DNA of 64,000 nt from assembly GCA_963805855.1 (NCBI GenBank), contig CAWDVW010000007.1, positions 544,001 to 608,000 on the forward strand, in the 5' to 3' direction. A program made the position numbers and the translations under genes. The notes below the pieces were generated by a model. That model was not told the DNA's origin. It was given only the letters and a program-made list of their open reading frames with translations, and searched no databases. Positions 59,790-64,000 of this stretch are shown here, in pieces (the stretch's first letter is position 1; each line of letters opens with the position of its first letter). Source of the DNA: Candidatus Dadabacteria bacterium (lineage in GTDB: Bacteria > Desulfobacterota_D > UBA1144 > Nemesobacterales > CSP1-2).

Positions 59790-60917
59790 TCACTGGGTTT
59801 TATCGACGAACCCTTCCTCATCTCCGCCCGGGCCGTAGTGGCAGTTGTAGCACCAGCCGCTATCGATGGTGATGTCTGCGGGATCATCCTCTTTTGAGGT
59901 CAAAGTGTCGTGGCAGATCATGCATTGAGCAGGGTCTTCGCCCTCGGTATCACCATGATTGTCCTGCGTGGCCGAGCCAAGAATCCACGTCGATAAAGGA
60001 GGCATAATAGCAAAGGGGAAGGGATGGTTAGTATTAAGGGGTGTAAAAGAAGACACCGGATCCGCCGTGCCGAGCACGTTTATCTCTAGACTTTGGGGAT
60101 TGGTCTTCACGGAGATTAGGACGTAGGCGAACTCCTCTGGGGAGACGTCGGTGCCATCTGAGTACTTAACCACTGGATGTTCGTCTTGTCCTTTGGAGAA
60201 GGTTAGGATGCGGTATGTCGGATCTTCCAAGCTGCCGATGACCGTCGCCCGTAACGCTTCCCCCACAAACTGGTTAACATTTACTGTTGGGTCATCAATG
60301 CGTGTCGGCACAAGATCATCGCCCAGGTCATTCACCTCGATGAAGAAATCGCCCATCGTCACGCCGCTCAGATCAAACACTGCAGTTGTGCCGTCCATCG
60401 ATATGGTTCCCGTCGCGACGACCATGCTATCCGTATCAAGCAGTTCAGCCTTTGTGAAGGATGTCGCCTTGGTGTCTCCGTGGGTTATGCTGGGGTCCAG
60501 GGTGAGCGAAAGTGTGGCACCTGGGGGGGGTGTAGGTGTAGGGCCAGGGGTTGGTGTGGGAGCAGGCGTTGGTGTGGGAGCAGGCGTTGGTGTGGGAGCA
60601 GGCGTTGGTGTGGGTGTCGGCGCTGGTGTGGGAGTCGCAGTCGGCGTGGGTGTCGGACTGACTATCGGGATACACAACCCAAGATCTGCAGAACATTGCG
60701 CATTTTGGAAGAATTGTCCTCCCTGATCTGTACAGTTGTTTTGATCTATATTACCCTGACAAGTTTCAAGAAATTCACAACAATTCTTGCCCCCTTGATC
60801 TCTATTGTCGATGTCACAGCTATACAGTGCATAGAGAGTAAATATTAGTAATGAAAAAAGTAGTAAAAATGTGCCCGACAGTCTTATCCTCTTATTTATA
60901 TTTATTAGCCCACTCAT
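59790..60917 (-). CDS. Diheme lipoprotein cytochrome c with Cys-rich module and Pro/Thr repeat linker
   Basis: Lipobox LYSC, 5-Cys module, (PT/PAPT)n linker, beta domain, CMICH and CYNCH. Confidence 0.85.
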
Positions 60918-60953
60918 GGTATTTCCTCCTTGAAAGTTAATTTGCCCGTTCCT

Positions 60954-60982
60954 ATTTTAGACCACGGTATGCATGGTGTCAA
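60954..60982 (-). promoter_or_regulatory. Sigma-70 promoter of the 60917 gene
   Basis: TTGACA-N17-TAAAAT on the minus strand, followed by an AGGAGG RBS. Confidence 0.75.
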
Positions 60983-61112
60983 GAAGCAATTTGAAAAGGC
61001 AATTTTCAGCCCCGATGAGAGACGGGAGAATGTTGACGAAGACCCATCCCCGCGCCAGACTATGGGCTATCCCACCAGCAAGACTGGTGGGCTTATATGT
61101 TATGCTTCCCAA

Positions 61113-61250
61113 AGACCAACTTGGAGAGAGGACCCTGGTGGGCTTGTGGCCTGACCACTTTGGGTAGTTATGTCCCTCTCCAAGCTAATCATGCTCTAAG
61201 TTCCATAGTGTTACGTTCCTGGAGAACCCATATAAGAATAACAGAGCATC
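61113..61250 (+). ncRNA. IS110 bridge RNA (target-binding and donor-binding loops)
   Basis: Stem 61120-61133/61172-61184 encloses CTGGTGGGCT and TGGGTAG. Stem 61191-61197/61243-61249 encloses CATAGTGTTAC and CATATAAG. The RNA boundaries are approximate. Confidence 0.85.
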
Positions 61251-61288
61251 GAGGTCATTTAAAATCTAATTAATAAGGAGGCATAGAT

Positions 61289-62518
61289 ATGCTTTACTGT
61301 GGTATTGACTGGTCTTGGGAGCAATTAACTTTGTTCATCATAGATGACAAAGGTAATCCGATTAAAGATTTTGTAATCAACAATGATCTCGATGGCTTCA
61401 TGTATGCCCTTTCCACTATTCGTCACCTGTGTAAAGAGCACGAGATCATCTTCGCCATTGAGACCTCTAATCAAAGGGTTATAGACTTTTTAATCAGCTA
61501 CGACTACAAGGTCTATCTAATAAATTCCAACTCTATGGATAAGTTCAGAAAGAGGTATAAGACTTCAGGTGTAAAAAGCGATAGTTTCGACGCATTTGTT
61601 ATAGCAAATGTCTTGCGCACAGACATAAGTACTTTGAATGCAGTCACTGCAGACGATCAACTCACCCAAGAGCTCGGAATCGTTCTAAGGGATAGAGAAT
61701 CACTCGTTGAACTTAAGACGAAACTATCGAATCAGCTCAGAGATTCTCTGCGACAATATTTTCCACAGGCCCTCAATCTATTCAATGATATATCTTGTAT
61801 TGTGTCTCTGCAGTTCTTAGAGGCTTTTCCCACACACTGTGATGCTCAGAAGGCTACAAAGAAACAAATACAATCAGTTCTTAGAGAAAATGGCTATTAT
61901 TCTGAGAAGAAATTGCGAGAGATAACCCGAGTCCTAAGGAAAGAGCACTTTCCTCCAAGAGCCAACTTAATAAGGGCTGAGAAAGAATTTACACTTTTCC
62001 TTGTATCCATGATTAAACCACTAATACGGCAGATTAAGGCTTACGATGAGAAGATTGAGTCTCTTTTAGAAAAACACCCTGATACTAAGCTATTCTTAAG
62101 CCTACCGGGGGTAGGAAATAACTTGGCTGGTGGCATGATATCTACCCTGAGAGATGATCGGTCTAGATTTGACTCAGCTAAACAAATCCAATCCCTAGGA
62201 GGCACTGCCCCCATAACTAAATCAAGTGGTAATTATACGTATACTCAATTCAGATTCAGGTGCAACAAGACCTTAAGAAAAACCCTGCATCAATTTGCCT
62301 TCAGTAGCATTACGAAATCCCTTTGGGCTAAGAATTACTACAACAAAAAGCGTGGTGAGGGAAAAACAAGTTCACATGCTTTCCGGTGTCTTGCTAATGC
62401 ATGGGTTAAAGTTATATTTGCTGTCTGGAAAAACAAAACCGTTTATGATGAGAACCGTCATCTAGCATCTGTTTCGAGACATATGATGTCGCAAGATTAT
62501 GTGTTACCTTTGACATAG
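61289..62518 (+). CDS. IS110 family DEDD recombinase/transposase
   Basis: GIDWS, AIET, KSDSFDA, SLPGVG, GTAP...SSG (catalytic Ser) and AGGAGG RBS. Confidence 0.96.
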   Translation: MLYCGIDWSWEQLTLFIIDDKGNPIKDFVINNDLDGFMYALSTIRHLCKEHEIIFAIETSNQRVIDFLISYDYKVYLINSNSMDKFRKRYKTSGVKSDSFDAFVIANVLRTDISTLNAVTADDQLTQELGIVLRDRESLVELKTKLSNQLRDSLRQYFPQALNLFNDISCIVSLQFLEAFPTHCDAQKATKKQIQSVLRENGYYSEKKLREITRVLRKEHFPPRANLIRAEKEFTLFLVSMIKPLIRQIKAYDEKIESLLEKHPDTKLFLSLPGVGNNLAGGMISTLRDDRSRFDSAKQIQSLGGTAPITKSSGNYTYTQFRFRCNKTLRKTLHQFAFSSITKSLWAKNYYNKKRGEGKTSSHAFRCLANAWVKVIFAVWKNKTVYDENRHLASVSRHMMSQDYVLPLT

Positions 62519-62574
62519 TGTTACTACCCATTTATTTGTAATTATTTCTTGAATAAGAAAGATTTTGTCTGGAT

Positions 62575-62607
62575 AAAAAAAGGGAGGAGGGTTAACTACC
62601 CTCCTCC
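62575..62607 (-). terminator. Rho-independent terminator
   Basis: GGAGGAGGGT-N5-ACCCTCCTCC with an A7 tract on the + strand. Confidence 0.85.
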
Positions 62608-62642
62608 TAATCTACTGACTTGAATGTCATTTCAATTGGGTT

Positions 62643-64000
62643 TTATTGAGTGGCTAGGAAGTTAGCAATCGCCTGGACTTCTGCAGGTGTGAGAGAACTG
62701 AGGAATCCCATCCCACCCTTATTCTCGTCAATAGCAGTTTGTATCTGGGACGCGGAATCCCCTTGGACATTTACGCCACTGCTGCCTCCAGAACCATCGG
62801 GACCGTGACACCCAGCGCAGTTAGCTGCATAAAGAGCAGCACCATCCTGAGGAATAGGAGTAGCTGTCGGCATTGGTGTGGGAGTGGCTGTTGGAGTAGG
62901 AGTCGGAGTGGCTGTTGGTGTAGCTGTCGGCGTTGGCGTGGGAGTGGCTGTCGGTGTGGGTGTTGGTGTAGCTGTCGGCGTTGGCGTAGGAGTAGCTGTC
63001 GGTGTAGGAGTTGGAATAGGCACTAGGCCGGATCTCAGTTCACAATCATCCGTATCCACCGAAGAACTGTCTCTTTGATCGACAGCCTGCACGCCGCCGT
63101 CAATTACACAAATTGCAAATGGATCCCCAGATGGAAGAAAGTCCACTATAGAGTTATCTTCAGACAAGACTCCATTATTATCTGCAGTGACGAATATATT
63201 GCCTCCCACCAGAGCCACTGCCGAGTCGTTGGAAGTGCGAATCCCGTTATTACTCGCATTAATCGTCAGTGTTGGTGTCGCAGTTGCGTTAAGATTAACA
63301 TTCGCAGAATCCTGAGCAAGAATTCCATCTTCACAATTGTCGAGTGTAAGGTCGGCTACCACGATGTCGACACTGGAATCTCCCGAAGCTCCAATACAAT
63401 TCTCGCCTTCCCCTTCTACCGTAAGATCGGCGTTCGGTTCATTAATTGAAAATATCCCGCTACCACTCGTTCGGATTACAGGAGAGGTGATGTCAAAGTT
63501 ATCAATTTGCAAAGTGGGCGGATCGACATCTGTAATAAAAGTCAAATCTAAATCGACAGTACTGCTCGAAGTAACATTTATCTGAATACTCGCGCTTTCA
63601 GTAGCCGGTGGAAGAAGTGAAACCGTAATGGTATATGCGCCTCCCGACGGAACGTCGAGAGAATAGTTACCCAAATCATCGGTCGTAGTCGAAGTAACCA
63701 GGGACCCGTTCTGGAAAACCTCGACGAGAACAGATTCGCCCACCTGGGCAATAGAATCTTTTGTAAGTGTAAGAAAATTCTTGATCCTTTCTAATATCGA
63801 AGGCTTTTCCGGCGCTGGCGCATTCATCGCACCAGGGCCAACCACATTTATGGTGCCGACTATCAAAGTCTGACCTTTACCCCCTTGATCTCTGTTGTTT
63901 ATATCACAGCTATATAGTGCAAATACAGCGAGCAATAATAATGAGAAAATGAGTACGGATGCGCCTGATACTCTTACCCTCCTATTTATACTCTTTAAAC
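62643..64000 (-). CDS. Lipoprotein with Pro/Thr repeats and a C-terminal PgcA-like monoheme domain; start lies just outside the window
   Basis: The frame is open to the window edge (LKSINRRVRVSGASVLIFSLLLLAVFALYSC). It has a long (PT/ATPT)n tract, then DGAALYAANCAGCH...NKGGMGFLSSLT. Confidence 0.88.
   Translation of the reverse strand, partial: LKSINRRVRVSGASVLIFSLLLLAVFALYSCDINNRDQGGKGQTLIVGTINVVGPGAMNAPAPEKPSILERIKNFLTLTKDSIAQVGESVLVEVFQNGSLVTSTTTDDLGNYSLDVPSGGAYTITVSLLPPATESASIQINVTSSSTVDLDLTFITDVDPPTLQIDNFDITSPVIRTSGSGIFSINEPNADLTVEGEGENCIGASGDSSVDIVVADLTLDNCEDGILAQDSANVNLNATATPTLTINASNNGIRTSNDSAVALVGGNIFVTADNNGVLSEDNSIVDFLPSGDPFAICVIDGGVQAVDQRDSSSVDTDDCELRSGLVPIPTPTPTATPTPTPTATPTPTPTATPTPTPTATPTATPTPTPTATPTPMPTATPIPQDGAALYAANCAGCHGPDGSGGSSGVNVQGDSASQIQTAIDENKGGMGFLSSLTPAEVQAIANFLATQ

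What the first reader, a model, noticed from the sequence alone, without database searches (positions are those of the whole stretch)
61084..62530. IS110 element with a fully readable bridge RNA: all four guides match the real junctions
Seen: the non-coding left end folds into two stem/internal-loop/hairpin units. Loop 1 carries CTGGTGGGCT (61135-61144), identical to the left flank plus core (61084-61093), and TGGGTAG (61161-61167), the reverse complement of core plus right flank CTACCCA (62524-62530). Loop 2 carries CATAGTGTTAC (61204-61214), identical to the element right end (62514-62524), and CATATAAG (61229-61236), the reverse complement of core plus left end CTTATATG (61092-61099). Known: this is the LTG/RTG/LDG/RDG layout with a CT core described for the IS621 bridge recombinase. 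Inference: this is an intact natural RNA-guided recombinase (409 aa, ~140-nt RNA) with target CTGGTGGG-CT-ACCCA and donor CATAGTGTTA-CT-TATATG. The perfectly matching spans are long (15 and 18 bp), so it is a candidate programmable recombination tool.
Basis: partly seen in the sequence, partly recalled or inferred. Interest (0 to 1): 0.88.

Follow-up and report, generated by a model that had tools for sequence, protein, structure and literature searches.

The report
IS110 element with readable bridge RNA
This is an intact jumping gene of the IS110 family whose own small RNA spells out both its ends and the repeat it landed in, a neat but ordinary new example of the RNA-guided "bridge recombinase" system described in 2024.

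Summary
All four strings sit at the stated coordinates. Chance does not explain them: at most 3 of 50,000 control segments reached even two of the four matches.

The element is 61094-62523, with a CT core on each side. Its 409-aa ORF passes Pfam PF01548 and PF02371 and NCBIfam NF033542, "IS110 family RNA-guided transposase".

The 5' non-coding end folds into two stem / internal-loop / hairpin modules. A covariance model built from it finds the same RNA just upstream of homologous ORFs in many metagenomic and MAG loci. 34 of 35 base pairs show compensatory change.

Across 32 distinct relatives the loop sequences track each element's own flanks and ends. Both target guides are near-perfect in 14 of 32 own pairings against 3 of 992 swapped pairings.

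The target is a REP-like hairpin repeat that has unoccupied copies in the same genome. A second, truncated copy sits in the same kind of site. One metagenome contig joins 61091 to 62524, which is the predicted empty site; this is weak evidence.

This is a new member of a known kind, not a new mechanism. Activity and programmability are untested.

The parts
61071..61091 (+). REP-like hairpin of the target repeat (8-bp stem, 5-nt loop). Its 3' arm, 61084-61091, is the left target half.
   Evidence: One search lists it as a stem-loop. One search finds the same 21-mer at 5 places in the genome (2 of them occupied by the IS) and at 14 places within 2 mismatches. One search shows it as the left flank of the second copy too.
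61092..61093 (+). Left copy of the CT core.
   Evidence: The joint has a 2-letter ambiguity here.
61094..62523 (+). The insertion sequence proper: 1430 bp, or 1432 bp with one core.
   Evidence: Boundaries come from the guide matches. The second genomic copy starts at the same base. A contig skips exactly 1432 bases, 61091 to 62524.
61101..61106 (+). TATGCT, a -10-like box of the promoter that would form only in the circular RE-LE junction.
   Evidence: it lies 17 nt from the TTGACA of the right end when the ends are joined through one CT. In the integrated state the hexamers at that distance are CAAGAC, GCAAGA or AGCAAG.
61114..61256 (+). Bridge RNA (model match, 143 nt) with a closing stem 61114-61117 / 61253-61256.
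   Evidence: Model R1. Homologous matches upstream of homologous ORFs. Pair counts.
61120..61184 (+). Target-binding module: stem 61120-61133 / 61172-61184, hairpin 61146-61158, and loops 61134-61145 and 61159-61171.
   Evidence: helices 2-6, 92.7-95% of cells paired, all pairs with compensatory changes.
61135..61144 (+). Left target guide (LTG), identical to left flank plus core.
   Evidence: It covaries with left flanks in relatives.
61161..61167 (+). Right target guide (RTG), reverse complement of core plus right flank. The next base, 61168, also complements the last base of the right end (handshake position).
   Evidence: It covaries with right flanks.
61191..61249 (+). Donor-binding module: stems 61191-61197 / 61243-61249 and 61200-61202 / 61240-61242, hairpin 61215-61227, and loops 61203-61214 and 61228-61239.
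   Evidence: helices 7-9.
61204..61214 (+). Left donor guide (LDG), identical to the last 10 nt of the element plus the C of the core.
   Evidence: The variable 5 nt covary with right ends in relatives.
61229..61236 (+). Right donor guide (RDG), reverse complement of core plus the first 6 nt of the element.
   Evidence: Position 8 covaries in L015.
61275..61281 (+). AAGGAGG ribosome-binding site of the recombinase gene.
   Evidence: Read; 7 nt before the ATG at 61289.
61289..62518 (+). Recombinase gene, 409 aa (DEDD RuvC-like domain, middle region, Tnp domain).
   Evidence: Invariant D7, E58, D98, D101 and nearly invariant S313-G314 in 32 homologues.
62510..62515 (+). TTGACA, a -35 box at the right end, overlapping the last codons.
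   Evidence: and 24/25: TTGACA (or a one-base variant) followed by TAG, i.e. just before the donor sequence, in most of the relatives printed.
62514..62523 (+). Left donor half (right end of the element). It contains the stop codon TAG at 62516-62518.
62524..62530 (+). Right copy of the CT core plus the right target half ACCCA.
   Evidence: The reconstructed 15-bp target occurs unoccupied twice in the genome, and 17 times within 2 mismatches.

Best explanation
Bases 61094-62523 are one copy of an IS110-group insertion sequence. It encodes a DEDD/Tnp serine recombinase and, in its long left end, a bridge RNA of about 143 nt.

The RNA has two internal loops. The first (61134-61145 and 61159-61171) carries the sequence of the insertion site, CTGGTGGG-CT-ACCCA, which is part of a REP-like hairpin repeat. 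The second (61203-61214 and 61228-61239) carries the sequence of the joined element ends, CATAGTGTTA-CT-TATATG.

By analogy with IS621, the following steps are inferred:
- the element excises as a circle;
- joining the ends creates a TTGACA-17 nt-TATGCT promoter that transcribes the RNA and the gene;
- recombinase dimers bound to each loop pair the 5' guide with the bottom strand and the 3' guide with the top strand of target and donor;
- strands are exchanged at the CT core.

Shown here: the anatomy, the family membership of the protein, the conserved and covarying RNA fold, and the covariation of guides with junctions in relatives. Also shown: target-like sites and a second copy at the same kind of site. 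Inferred: transcription, circle formation, RNA-DNA pairing and present activity.
For: 1. The four exact matches lie in loops, and chance does not account for them.
2. The protein scores PF01548 3.3e-31 and PF02371 4.7e-17. It scores 171.8 bits on NF033542, 'IS110 family RNA-guided transposase', above the 140-bit cut-off. The only solved relatives are the ISCro4 and IS621 transposases. D7, E58, D98 and D101 are invariant, and S313 and G314 are conserved, in 32 aligned homologues.
3. Model R1 of the RNA gave 74 matches in 98 sources and 42 matches in 63 sources, nearly all on the ORF strand and ending just upstream of the ORF.
4. On alignment A5, 92.3% of cells pair against 59.2% in shuffles. 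34 of 35 pairs carry changes on both sides. The covariation score is 0.727 against 0.116 or less for slid partners.
5. Closest relatives:
   - L015: left flank GGAGCGG-CT equals its LTG; right end CATAGTGATA equals its LDG; left end CTTATATA equals the reverse complement of its RDG.
   - L011: the flank differs from its LTG by an A/G that gives a G:T wobble.
6. In 32 distinct elements:
   - left flank 7 nt + core matched at 8 or more of 9 in 20/32 own pairings against 7/992 swapped;
   - core + right flank 5 nt matched at 6 or more of 7 in 26/32 against 48/992;
   - both together in 14/32 against 3/992.
   The LDG variable 5 nt matched the right end at 4 or more in 29/32 against 115/992.
7. 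The second copy is 100% identical over 951 nt and has the same hairpin-CT left flank.
8. Unoccupied target sites exist in the genome.
9. One contig in run X2 skips exactly 61092-62523 with a 2-letter CT ambiguity.
10. The junction promoter geometry and the ATA...TAT sub-terminal repeat fit what Durrant et al. describe (passages).
Against: - No transcript over 61114-61256 was seen. The one RNA run held only two 151-nt contigs inside the ORF.
- No circle-junction joint was reported.
- The empty-site joint rests on one contig with only 21 letters on its shorter side, and a repeat adjoins the joint on the left, so it may come from a paralogous repeat.
- The single-sequence fold is weak (z -2.17) and differs from the consensus in the first module.
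- The base after the RDG (A, 61237) does not complement target position 7 (G), whereas it does in 28 of 32 relatives.
- Only one full copy is present in a 94%-complete genome.
- In the family test, 55 of 96 RNA matches were dropped because one or both junctions could not be placed. The junctions were placed with the help of the donor guides, so the donor-side figures are partly circular. The target-side figures are not.
- Alignment A5 is fitted to the model, which favours the structure.
Confidence: 0.88

Rival explanations
1. The element is a correctly read IS110 / bridge RNA unit but is no longer mobile. On this view it is a fossil whose guide matches merely record its last insertion.
For: There is only one full copy and one truncated copy in the genome. 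No circle junction was seen. The handshake position of the donor loop is mismatched to its target. No RNA cover was found over the bridge RNA.
Against: The ORF is open with all conserved catalytic-type residues. The two copies are 100% identical over 951 nt, which argues for recent movement. The guides show no decay. A contig with the precise empty site exists (weak). A 93%-identical protein occurs on other contigs (P0001).
Confidence: 0.25
2. The internal copies of the junction sequences act as DNA sites (sub-terminal recombinase-binding repeats) and not as RNA guides.
For: The matches are equally visible at DNA level. No RNA was observed here.
Against: Two of the four strings copy DNA outside the element, and in relatives they change with the flank. 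A fixed binding site would not do that. The strings sit in the loops of a fold kept by compensatory changes in 34 of 35 pairs. G:T wobble-type differences (L011, L015) fit RNA-DNA pairing. For IS621 the RNA was shown to be necessary for recombination in vitro (Durrant 2024, passage).
Confidence: 0.03
3. It is an IS1111-type element with a 3' seekRNA, and the 5' structure is incidental.
For: Both groups share the same protein family.
Against: The right end reaches only 5 nt beyond the stop codon, so there is no room for a 3' RNA. The left end is 195 nt. There are no long sub-terminal inverted repeats, only ATA...TAT. Durrant 2024 gives long LE / short RE / short STIR as the IS110-group pattern (passage).
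Confidence: 0.01

Closest known systems
IS621 of Escherichia coli: bridge recombinase and bridge RNA (Durrant et al. 2024, PMC11208160; Hiraizumi et al. 2024, PMC11208158; passages read)
   Same: - DEDD RuvC-like domain plus Tnp domain.
- RNA encoded in the left end, with a target-binding and a donor-binding internal loop.
- The 5' guides equal the top strand and the 3' guides complement it.
- CT core.
- A sigma-70 promoter split between the right and left ends.
- An ATA/TAT short sub-terminal repeat.
- Insertion into REP-type repeats.
   Different: - The protein is 409 aa against the 326 residues given for IS621.
- Only residues 247-392 align to the solved IS621 and ISCro4 chains, at E 3e-07 and 1e-08, so this is a distant clade.
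- Guides are a little longer: 8+2+5 for the target and 10+2+6 for the donor.
- The RNA model is about 143 nt against the 177-nt bRNA used for IS621.
- The host is an uncultured sediment bacterium.
- Nothing is tested biochemically.
ISCro4 / IS622 bridge recombinases used for genome rearrangement (10.1101/2025.05.14.653916, abstract only; PDB 9t56)
   Same: It is the best solved-structure match of the Tnp domain (E 1e-08), and the system has the same two components.
   Different: There is no detectable match of the N-terminal domain by phmmer. No activity data exist for the window's element.
ISPpu9 / ISPpu10 of Pseudomonas putida (PMC12288879 and 10.64898/2026.03.19.712850; abstracts only)
   Same: They are IS110-family elements that insert into repetitive extragenic palindromes or one conserved intergenic repeat. 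The ISPpu10 abstract raises target recognition beyond RNA-DNA base pairing; here the left target half is the 3' arm of a hairpin.
   Different: Whether the hairpin structure matters here is untested. ISPpu9 carries its small RNA gene downstream of the transposase, whereas here the RNA is upstream.
IS1111 group / seekRNA elements (named in the abstract of PMC13604230; group features from Durrant 2024)
   Same: The recombinase family and the RNA-guided logic are the same.
   Different: IS1111 elements have long right ends and 7-17-bp sub-terminal inverted repeats. The window's element has a 5-nt right end beyond the stop codon and a 195-nt left end.

Membership tests
IS110 family (IS110 group) bridge-recombinase element | N-terminal DEDD RuvC-like domain | tested here: met
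   PF01548 at residues 4-159, E 3.3e-31, 108.6 bits against a cut-off of 29. D7, E58, D98 and D101 are invariant in 32 homologues, with spacing like D11/E60/D102/D105 of IS621. The residue-to-residue equivalence is inferred, not aligned.
IS110 family (IS110 group) bridge-recombinase element | C-terminal Tnp domain with a conserved Ser-Gly | tested here: met
   PF02371 at residues 267-351, E 4.7e-17. S313 is nearly invariant and G314 invariant. S313-G314 align to the SG of ISCro4 in the printed alignment. IS621 has S241-G242.
IS110 family (IS110 group) bridge-recombinase element | Whole-protein equivalog model of NCBI | tested here: met
   NF033542, 'IS110 family RNA-guided transposase': 171.8 bits against a cut-off of 140.
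IS110 family (IS110 group) bridge-recombinase element | Long non-coding left end, very short right end, no long terminal or sub-terminal inverted repeats | tested here: met
   The left end is 195 nt (61094-61288) and the right end reaches 5 nt past the stop codon. Only ATA (62515-62517) and TAT (61096-61098) flank the donor. This is the pattern described.
IS110 family (IS110 group) bridge-recombinase element | Two-module RNA fold (stem, internal loop, hairpin, twice) conserved in relatives | tested here: met
   Model R1 matches upstream of homologous ORFs. 34 of 35 pairs carry compensatory changes. Caveats: the alignment is fitted to the model, and the single-sequence MFE agrees only partly.
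IS110 family (IS110 group) bridge-recombinase element | Loop 1 guides match the target and loop 2 guides match the donor, each around a shared core dinucleotide | tested here: met
   Exact in the window. They covary in relatives: both target guides are near-perfect in 14/32 own pairings against 3/992 swapped. The LDG against the right end scores 29/32 against 115/992.
IS110 family (IS110 group) bridge-recombinase element | Promoter reconstituted across the RE-LE junction of the circle | tested here: inconclusive
   The sequence geometry is present: TTGACA (62510-62515), a 17-nt spacer, TATGCT (61101-61106). TTGACA-like boxes sit at the right ends of relatives. No transcript and no circle were observed.
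IS110 family (IS110 group) bridge-recombinase element | RNA-dependent recombination of donor and target | not testable with these tools
   This needs an in vitro or plasmid assay.
Rfam RNA families | Match of the left end to a curated covariance model | tested here: not met
   No family matched 61094-61288 at E 1 or better. The only hit in 60800-62800 was sraA at 62522-62616, 30.5 bits against a gathering score of 56, and it lies on a terminator. This says only that no curated model caught it.

The most novel reading that the evidence does not exclude
This element represents a little-studied clade of larger (about 400 aa) bridge recombinases from anoxic sediment bacteria. The clade is currently mobile in salt-marsh populations. 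It specifies a longer target (15 bp) and donor (18 bp) than IS621, and it reads its target partly as a REP hairpin, using sequence plus structure. If so, it could be a more specific natural scaffold than the E. coli enzymes. The truncated second copy might record a bridge-RNA-guided half-site recombination.
Probability: 0.2. Interest if true: 0.5.

Novelty: new member of a known kind. Interest (0 to 1): 0.3.

Why it matters
The value is mainly in annotation and as a resource. The work gives exact boundaries, guides, target and donor for a natural bridge recombinase that is distant from the characterised IS621 and ISCro4 enzymes. It also gives a set of relatives whose guides can be read the same way.

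It shows that the two-loop design, the split promoter and REP targeting hold in a clade found in sediment bacteria of several phyla. It explains an otherwise odd 1.4-kb interruption of a REP-like repeat between two genes.

It does not reveal a new mechanism. Thousands of such RNAs were already predicted by Durrant et al. 2024, and NCBI already names the protein family 'RNA-guided transposase'.

Tried and rejected
- **Rfam**: no family covers the left end. The sub-threshold sraA hit lies on the terminator of the neighbouring gene and was dismissed.
- **Taxonomic relatives**: 40 relatives were searched with the protein. The best non-self matches are 23-28% identical, in 4 of the 40, so there is no orthologous copy for comparison.
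- **Orthologous empty site**: I searched five same-genus or same-family genomes with the right flank. Only coding-region matches of 66-80% turned up, plus two very short ones. The intergenic region is not conserved, so no empty site could be read there.
- **The search for related loci with the 32-sequence alignment**: it failed because no stretch was conserved enough. I repeated it with a 9-sequence alignment.
- **First alignment-free search for left-end boundaries**: it was noisy and mis-placed even the window's own end. I replaced it with the covariance-model alignment.
- **Sequencing runs**:
  - The RNA run X20 held only two 151-nt contigs inside the ORF (61552-61702, 61792-61936) and nothing over the bridge RNA. 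This shows neither expression nor silence.
  - No circle-junction joint was listed.
  - Contig breaks near 61991-62020 in X1 and X2, with a higher per-contig depth before them, fit the truncated second copy. Contig depth cannot rank parts, so this is only a hint.
- **Handshake positions**: own pairings (30/32 and 28/32) barely exceed swapped pairings (77% and 79%), because these positions vary little. They add no independent support.
- **Origin of the truncated copy**: I could not derive its right junction cleanly from a core-to-core or microhomology deletion. It is left unexplained.
- **Not run**: structure prediction, complex prediction and the Atlas were not used, because the family assignment was already clear.
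- **Supplementary files**: the supplements of the papers were not seen. Durrant et al.'s lists of predicted orthologues may already contain this element or its clade.
Full report
**1.

Reading the window:
- 61135-61144 (CTGGTGGGCT) repeats 61084-61093.
- 61161-61167 (TGGGTAG) is the reverse complement of 62524-62530.
- 61204-61214 (CATAGTGTTAC) repeats 62514-62524.
- 61229-61236 (CATATAAG) is the reverse complement of 61092-61099.

The two direct strings each occur exactly twice in 64 kb, where 0.03 and 0.02 are expected. 0 of 100 shuffles gave two or more.

I also ran a junction-anchored control. The observed match lengths are 10, 7, 11 and 8 nt.
- Among 50,000 random genome segments of the same length as the left end, 26, 312, 1 and 97 reached the observed length for the single guides. 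Only 3 reached it for two or more guides at once. The genome's own IS copies were not removed from this sample.
- Among 50,000 shuffles of the left end, the figures were 10, 470, 4 and 221, and 2 for two or more guides.

So the four matches together are not chance.

**2. The gene**

The only long ORF is 61289-62518 (+), 409 aa.
- It matches PF01548 (DEDD_Tnp_IS110, 3.3e-31) and PF02371 (Transposase_20, 4.7e-17).
- It scores 171.8 bits on NCBIfam NF033542, 'IS110 family RNA-guided transposase', above the curated cut-off of 140.
- Its only relatives with solved structures are the ISCro4 (9t56, E 1e-08) and IS621 (8wt6, E 3e-07) transposases. Both align only over residues 247-392, so this is a distant branch of the family.
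- In an alignment of 32 homologues, D7, E58, D98 and D101 are invariant, S313 is nearly invariant, and G314 is invariant in the closer set. This parallels the D11/E60/D102/D105 and S241-G242 residues of IS621 (passages of PMC11208158). The equivalence is inferred from spacing and from the printed ISCro4 alignment.

**3. Boundaries**

The guide matches place the element at 61094-62523, with CT on each side (61092-93 and 62524-25).

The genome (3.11 Mb, 9 contigs, 94% complete) holds a second copy on contig C5. It is 100% identical over element bases 1-951 and starts at the same base. It is preceded by the same hairpin plus CT.

One contig of a salt-marsh metagenome run (X2) joins 61091 to 62524. 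It skips 1432 bases with a 2-letter ambiguity, which is the predicted empty site. This is weak: it is one contig at depth 2.6, with only 21 letters on its shorter side, and a repeat adjoins the joint on the left.

**4. The RNA**

The single-sequence fold is only modestly better than shuffles (-56.8 kcal/mol, z -2.17; 5 of 200 shuffles fold as well). It also pairs part of the first loop. The structure therefore has to rest on relatives.

Homologous proteins are plentiful: 96 with E of 1e-30 or better, the best at 93%, 70%, 68% and 66% identity. They are absent from the host's taxonomic relatives, where the best non-self matches are 23-28% identical in 4 of 40 genomes. This suggests horizontal spread.

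I fetched 80 metagenome loci and 75 loci from MAGs and genomes of several phyla.

The left ends of the closest relatives (L011 and L012 at 70% protein identity, L015 at 67%) align with the window at 87% mean column identity. The differences are concentrated in the four guide stretches and the hairpin loops.

I wrote a structure onto this alignment with:
- a closing stem;
- a 13-bp stem with one bulge;
- a 12-nt loop, a 4-bp hairpin and a 13-nt loop;
- a second module of the same design.

From it I built covariance model R1. R1 gave 74 matches in 98 sources and 42 matches in 63 sources. Nearly all are on the ORF strand and end a few tens of bases before the ORF; seven of the 74 and a few of the 42 are weak opposite-strand or partial matches.

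On the 74-row alignment A5:
- 92.3% of cells form standard pairs, against 59.2% in shuffles.
- 34 of 35 pairs carry changes on both sides.
- The covariation score is 0.727, against 0.210 in shuffles and 0.116 or less when partners are slid.

The alignment is fitted to the model, which flatters these numbers. The contrast with slid partners is nonetheless large.

**5. Guides covary with junctions**

By eye:
- L015 has left flank GGAGCGG-CT and the same string in its first loop. Its right end CATAGTGATA equals its LDG. Its left end CTTATATA equals the reverse complement of its RDG. Its RTG pairs with its right flank if two G:T wobbles are allowed.
- L011 differs from its flank by an A/G that again gives a G:T wobble. 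Its right end changed TT to AA relative to the window, and its LDG changed with it.

Across the clade, the right end reads CATAG plus five variable bases, and the same five bases appear in the second loop.

For a count, I took the 96 plus-strand matches of at least 120 nt. I placed the left end with the RDG and the right end with the LDG, and kept the 41 in which both were placed at 7 or more of 8 with the same core. The other 55 were dropped. This left 36 non-identical rows and 32 distinct guide pairs.

With register-tolerant scoring:

| Comparison | Own pairings | Swapped pairings |
|---|---|---|
| Left flank 7 nt + core, 8 or more of 9 | 20/32 | 7/992 |
| Core + right flank 5 nt, 6 or more of 7 | 26/32 | 48/992 |
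| Both together | 14/32 | 3/992 |

The five variable bases of the right end match the LDG at 4 or more of 5 in 29/32 own pairings against 115/992 swapped.

The target-side test is independent of how the junctions were found. The donor-side test is partly circular.

**6. The target**

The left target half is the 3' arm of an 8-bp-stem hairpin (61071-61091).
- The 21-mer recurs 5 times exactly in the genome, and 14 times within two mismatches.
- Many of these copies are followed by CT and ACCC.
- The reconstructed 15-bp target occurs unoccupied twice exactly, and 17 times within two mismatches.

Earlier notes of this scan describe REP-type hairpin repeat families in the same genome. I confirmed only that this hairpin is a dispersed repeat.

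REP targeting is usual for the family, as in IS621, ISPpu9 and ISPpu10 (abstracts).

The insertion lies between two minus-strand genes. It is beyond the terminator of the upstream one (62583-62607) and upstream of a strong promoter-like site of the downstream one (60982-60954). It probably disrupts nothing.

**7. The mechanism**

Steps shown here: the anatomy, the family, and the covariation.

Steps inferred from IS621:
- excision to a circle;
- a promoter formed across the junction;
- dimers on each loop;
- 5' guides pairing with the bottom strand and 3' guides with the top strand;
- cleavage next to CT by a Ser-DEDD composite site, followed by a Holliday junction and its resolution.

Supporting details:
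- For the promoter, TTGACA at 62510-62515 lies 17 nt from TATGCT at 61101-61106 once the ends are joined. In the integrated copy the corresponding hexamers are poor. No promoter-like site precedes the RNA.
- The base after the RTG complements the last base of the right end, as in 30/32 relatives.
- The base after the RDG (A, 61237) does not complement target position 7 (G), unlike 28/32 relatives. This could lower efficiency.

**8. Comparison and verdict**

The layout is that of IS621 in every respect tested. The protein passes curated family thresholds.

The differences are of degree:
- a larger and distant protein;
- a shorter RNA;
- slightly longer matched spans (8+2+5 and 10+2+6, against 8-9 nt and 4-7 nt reported for the family).

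Durrant et al. already predicted thousands of such RNAs with the same kind of model. I could not see their supplementary lists.

The finding is therefore a correct reading of a new member of a known kind. Activity, expression and programmability remain to be tested.

Noticed in passing
G000 contig C5:922159-923108 (L002 1501-2450, minus strand): A second copy of the element is truncated after element base 951. It is then joined to sequence resembling the right half of the same target repeat family (...TACCCG..GGG..AGGGA). I could not derive the junction from a clean core-to-core or microhomology deletion. Contig breaks near 61991-62020 in two metagenome runs fit its presence in the population.
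   Followed up: partly
window 59790-60917 (-) and 62643-63998 (-): The two genes flanking the insertion look like paralogues. They have similar signal-peptide/lipobox N-termini (…LYSCDI(D/N)NRDQGGK…), long Pro-Thr-rich linkers and CxxCH haem-binding motifs. They may be surface-tethered c-type cytochromes.
   Followed up: no
window 61237: The handshake position after the right donor guide is A, while target position 7 is G. This is one of only 4 such non-complementary cases among 32 relatives.
   Followed up: partly
window 62583-62607 (-): This is the intrinsic terminator of the upstream gene (10-bp stem and a T run). It produced a sub-threshold Rfam sraA hit (30.5 against 56 bits), which is a terminator look-alike and not an sRNA.
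   Followed up: yes
L019, about 60-115 nt upstream of its ORF: A relative carries a tandem array of about seven copies of an 8-nt unit (GGAAACAT) between its bridge RNA and its recombinase gene. The array is absent from its near-identical sister loci L020 and L024.
   Followed up: no
L093 (also L117, L121, L160; Neomarinimicrobiota/Fidelibacterota MAGs): These relatives carry a roughly 25-nt insertion in the hairpin of the target-binding module, and the model aligned their donor module poorly. Their RNA may be a structural variant.
   Followed up: no
window 61289-62515 protein, residues 208-367: There is a weak sub-threshold match to NCBIfam NF052498, 'TIGR-Tas system RNA-guided endonuclease' (28 bits against a cut-off of 100). 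It may reflect a distant relation to other RNA-guided proteins; not followed up.
   Followed up: no
L011 flanks: The 70%-identical relative sits in a different hairpin whose loop has the same GCAAGAC sequence but a different stem, and its LTG has changed accordingly. Related REP-like hairpins in different hosts seem to be tracked by this IS lineage.
   Followed up: partly
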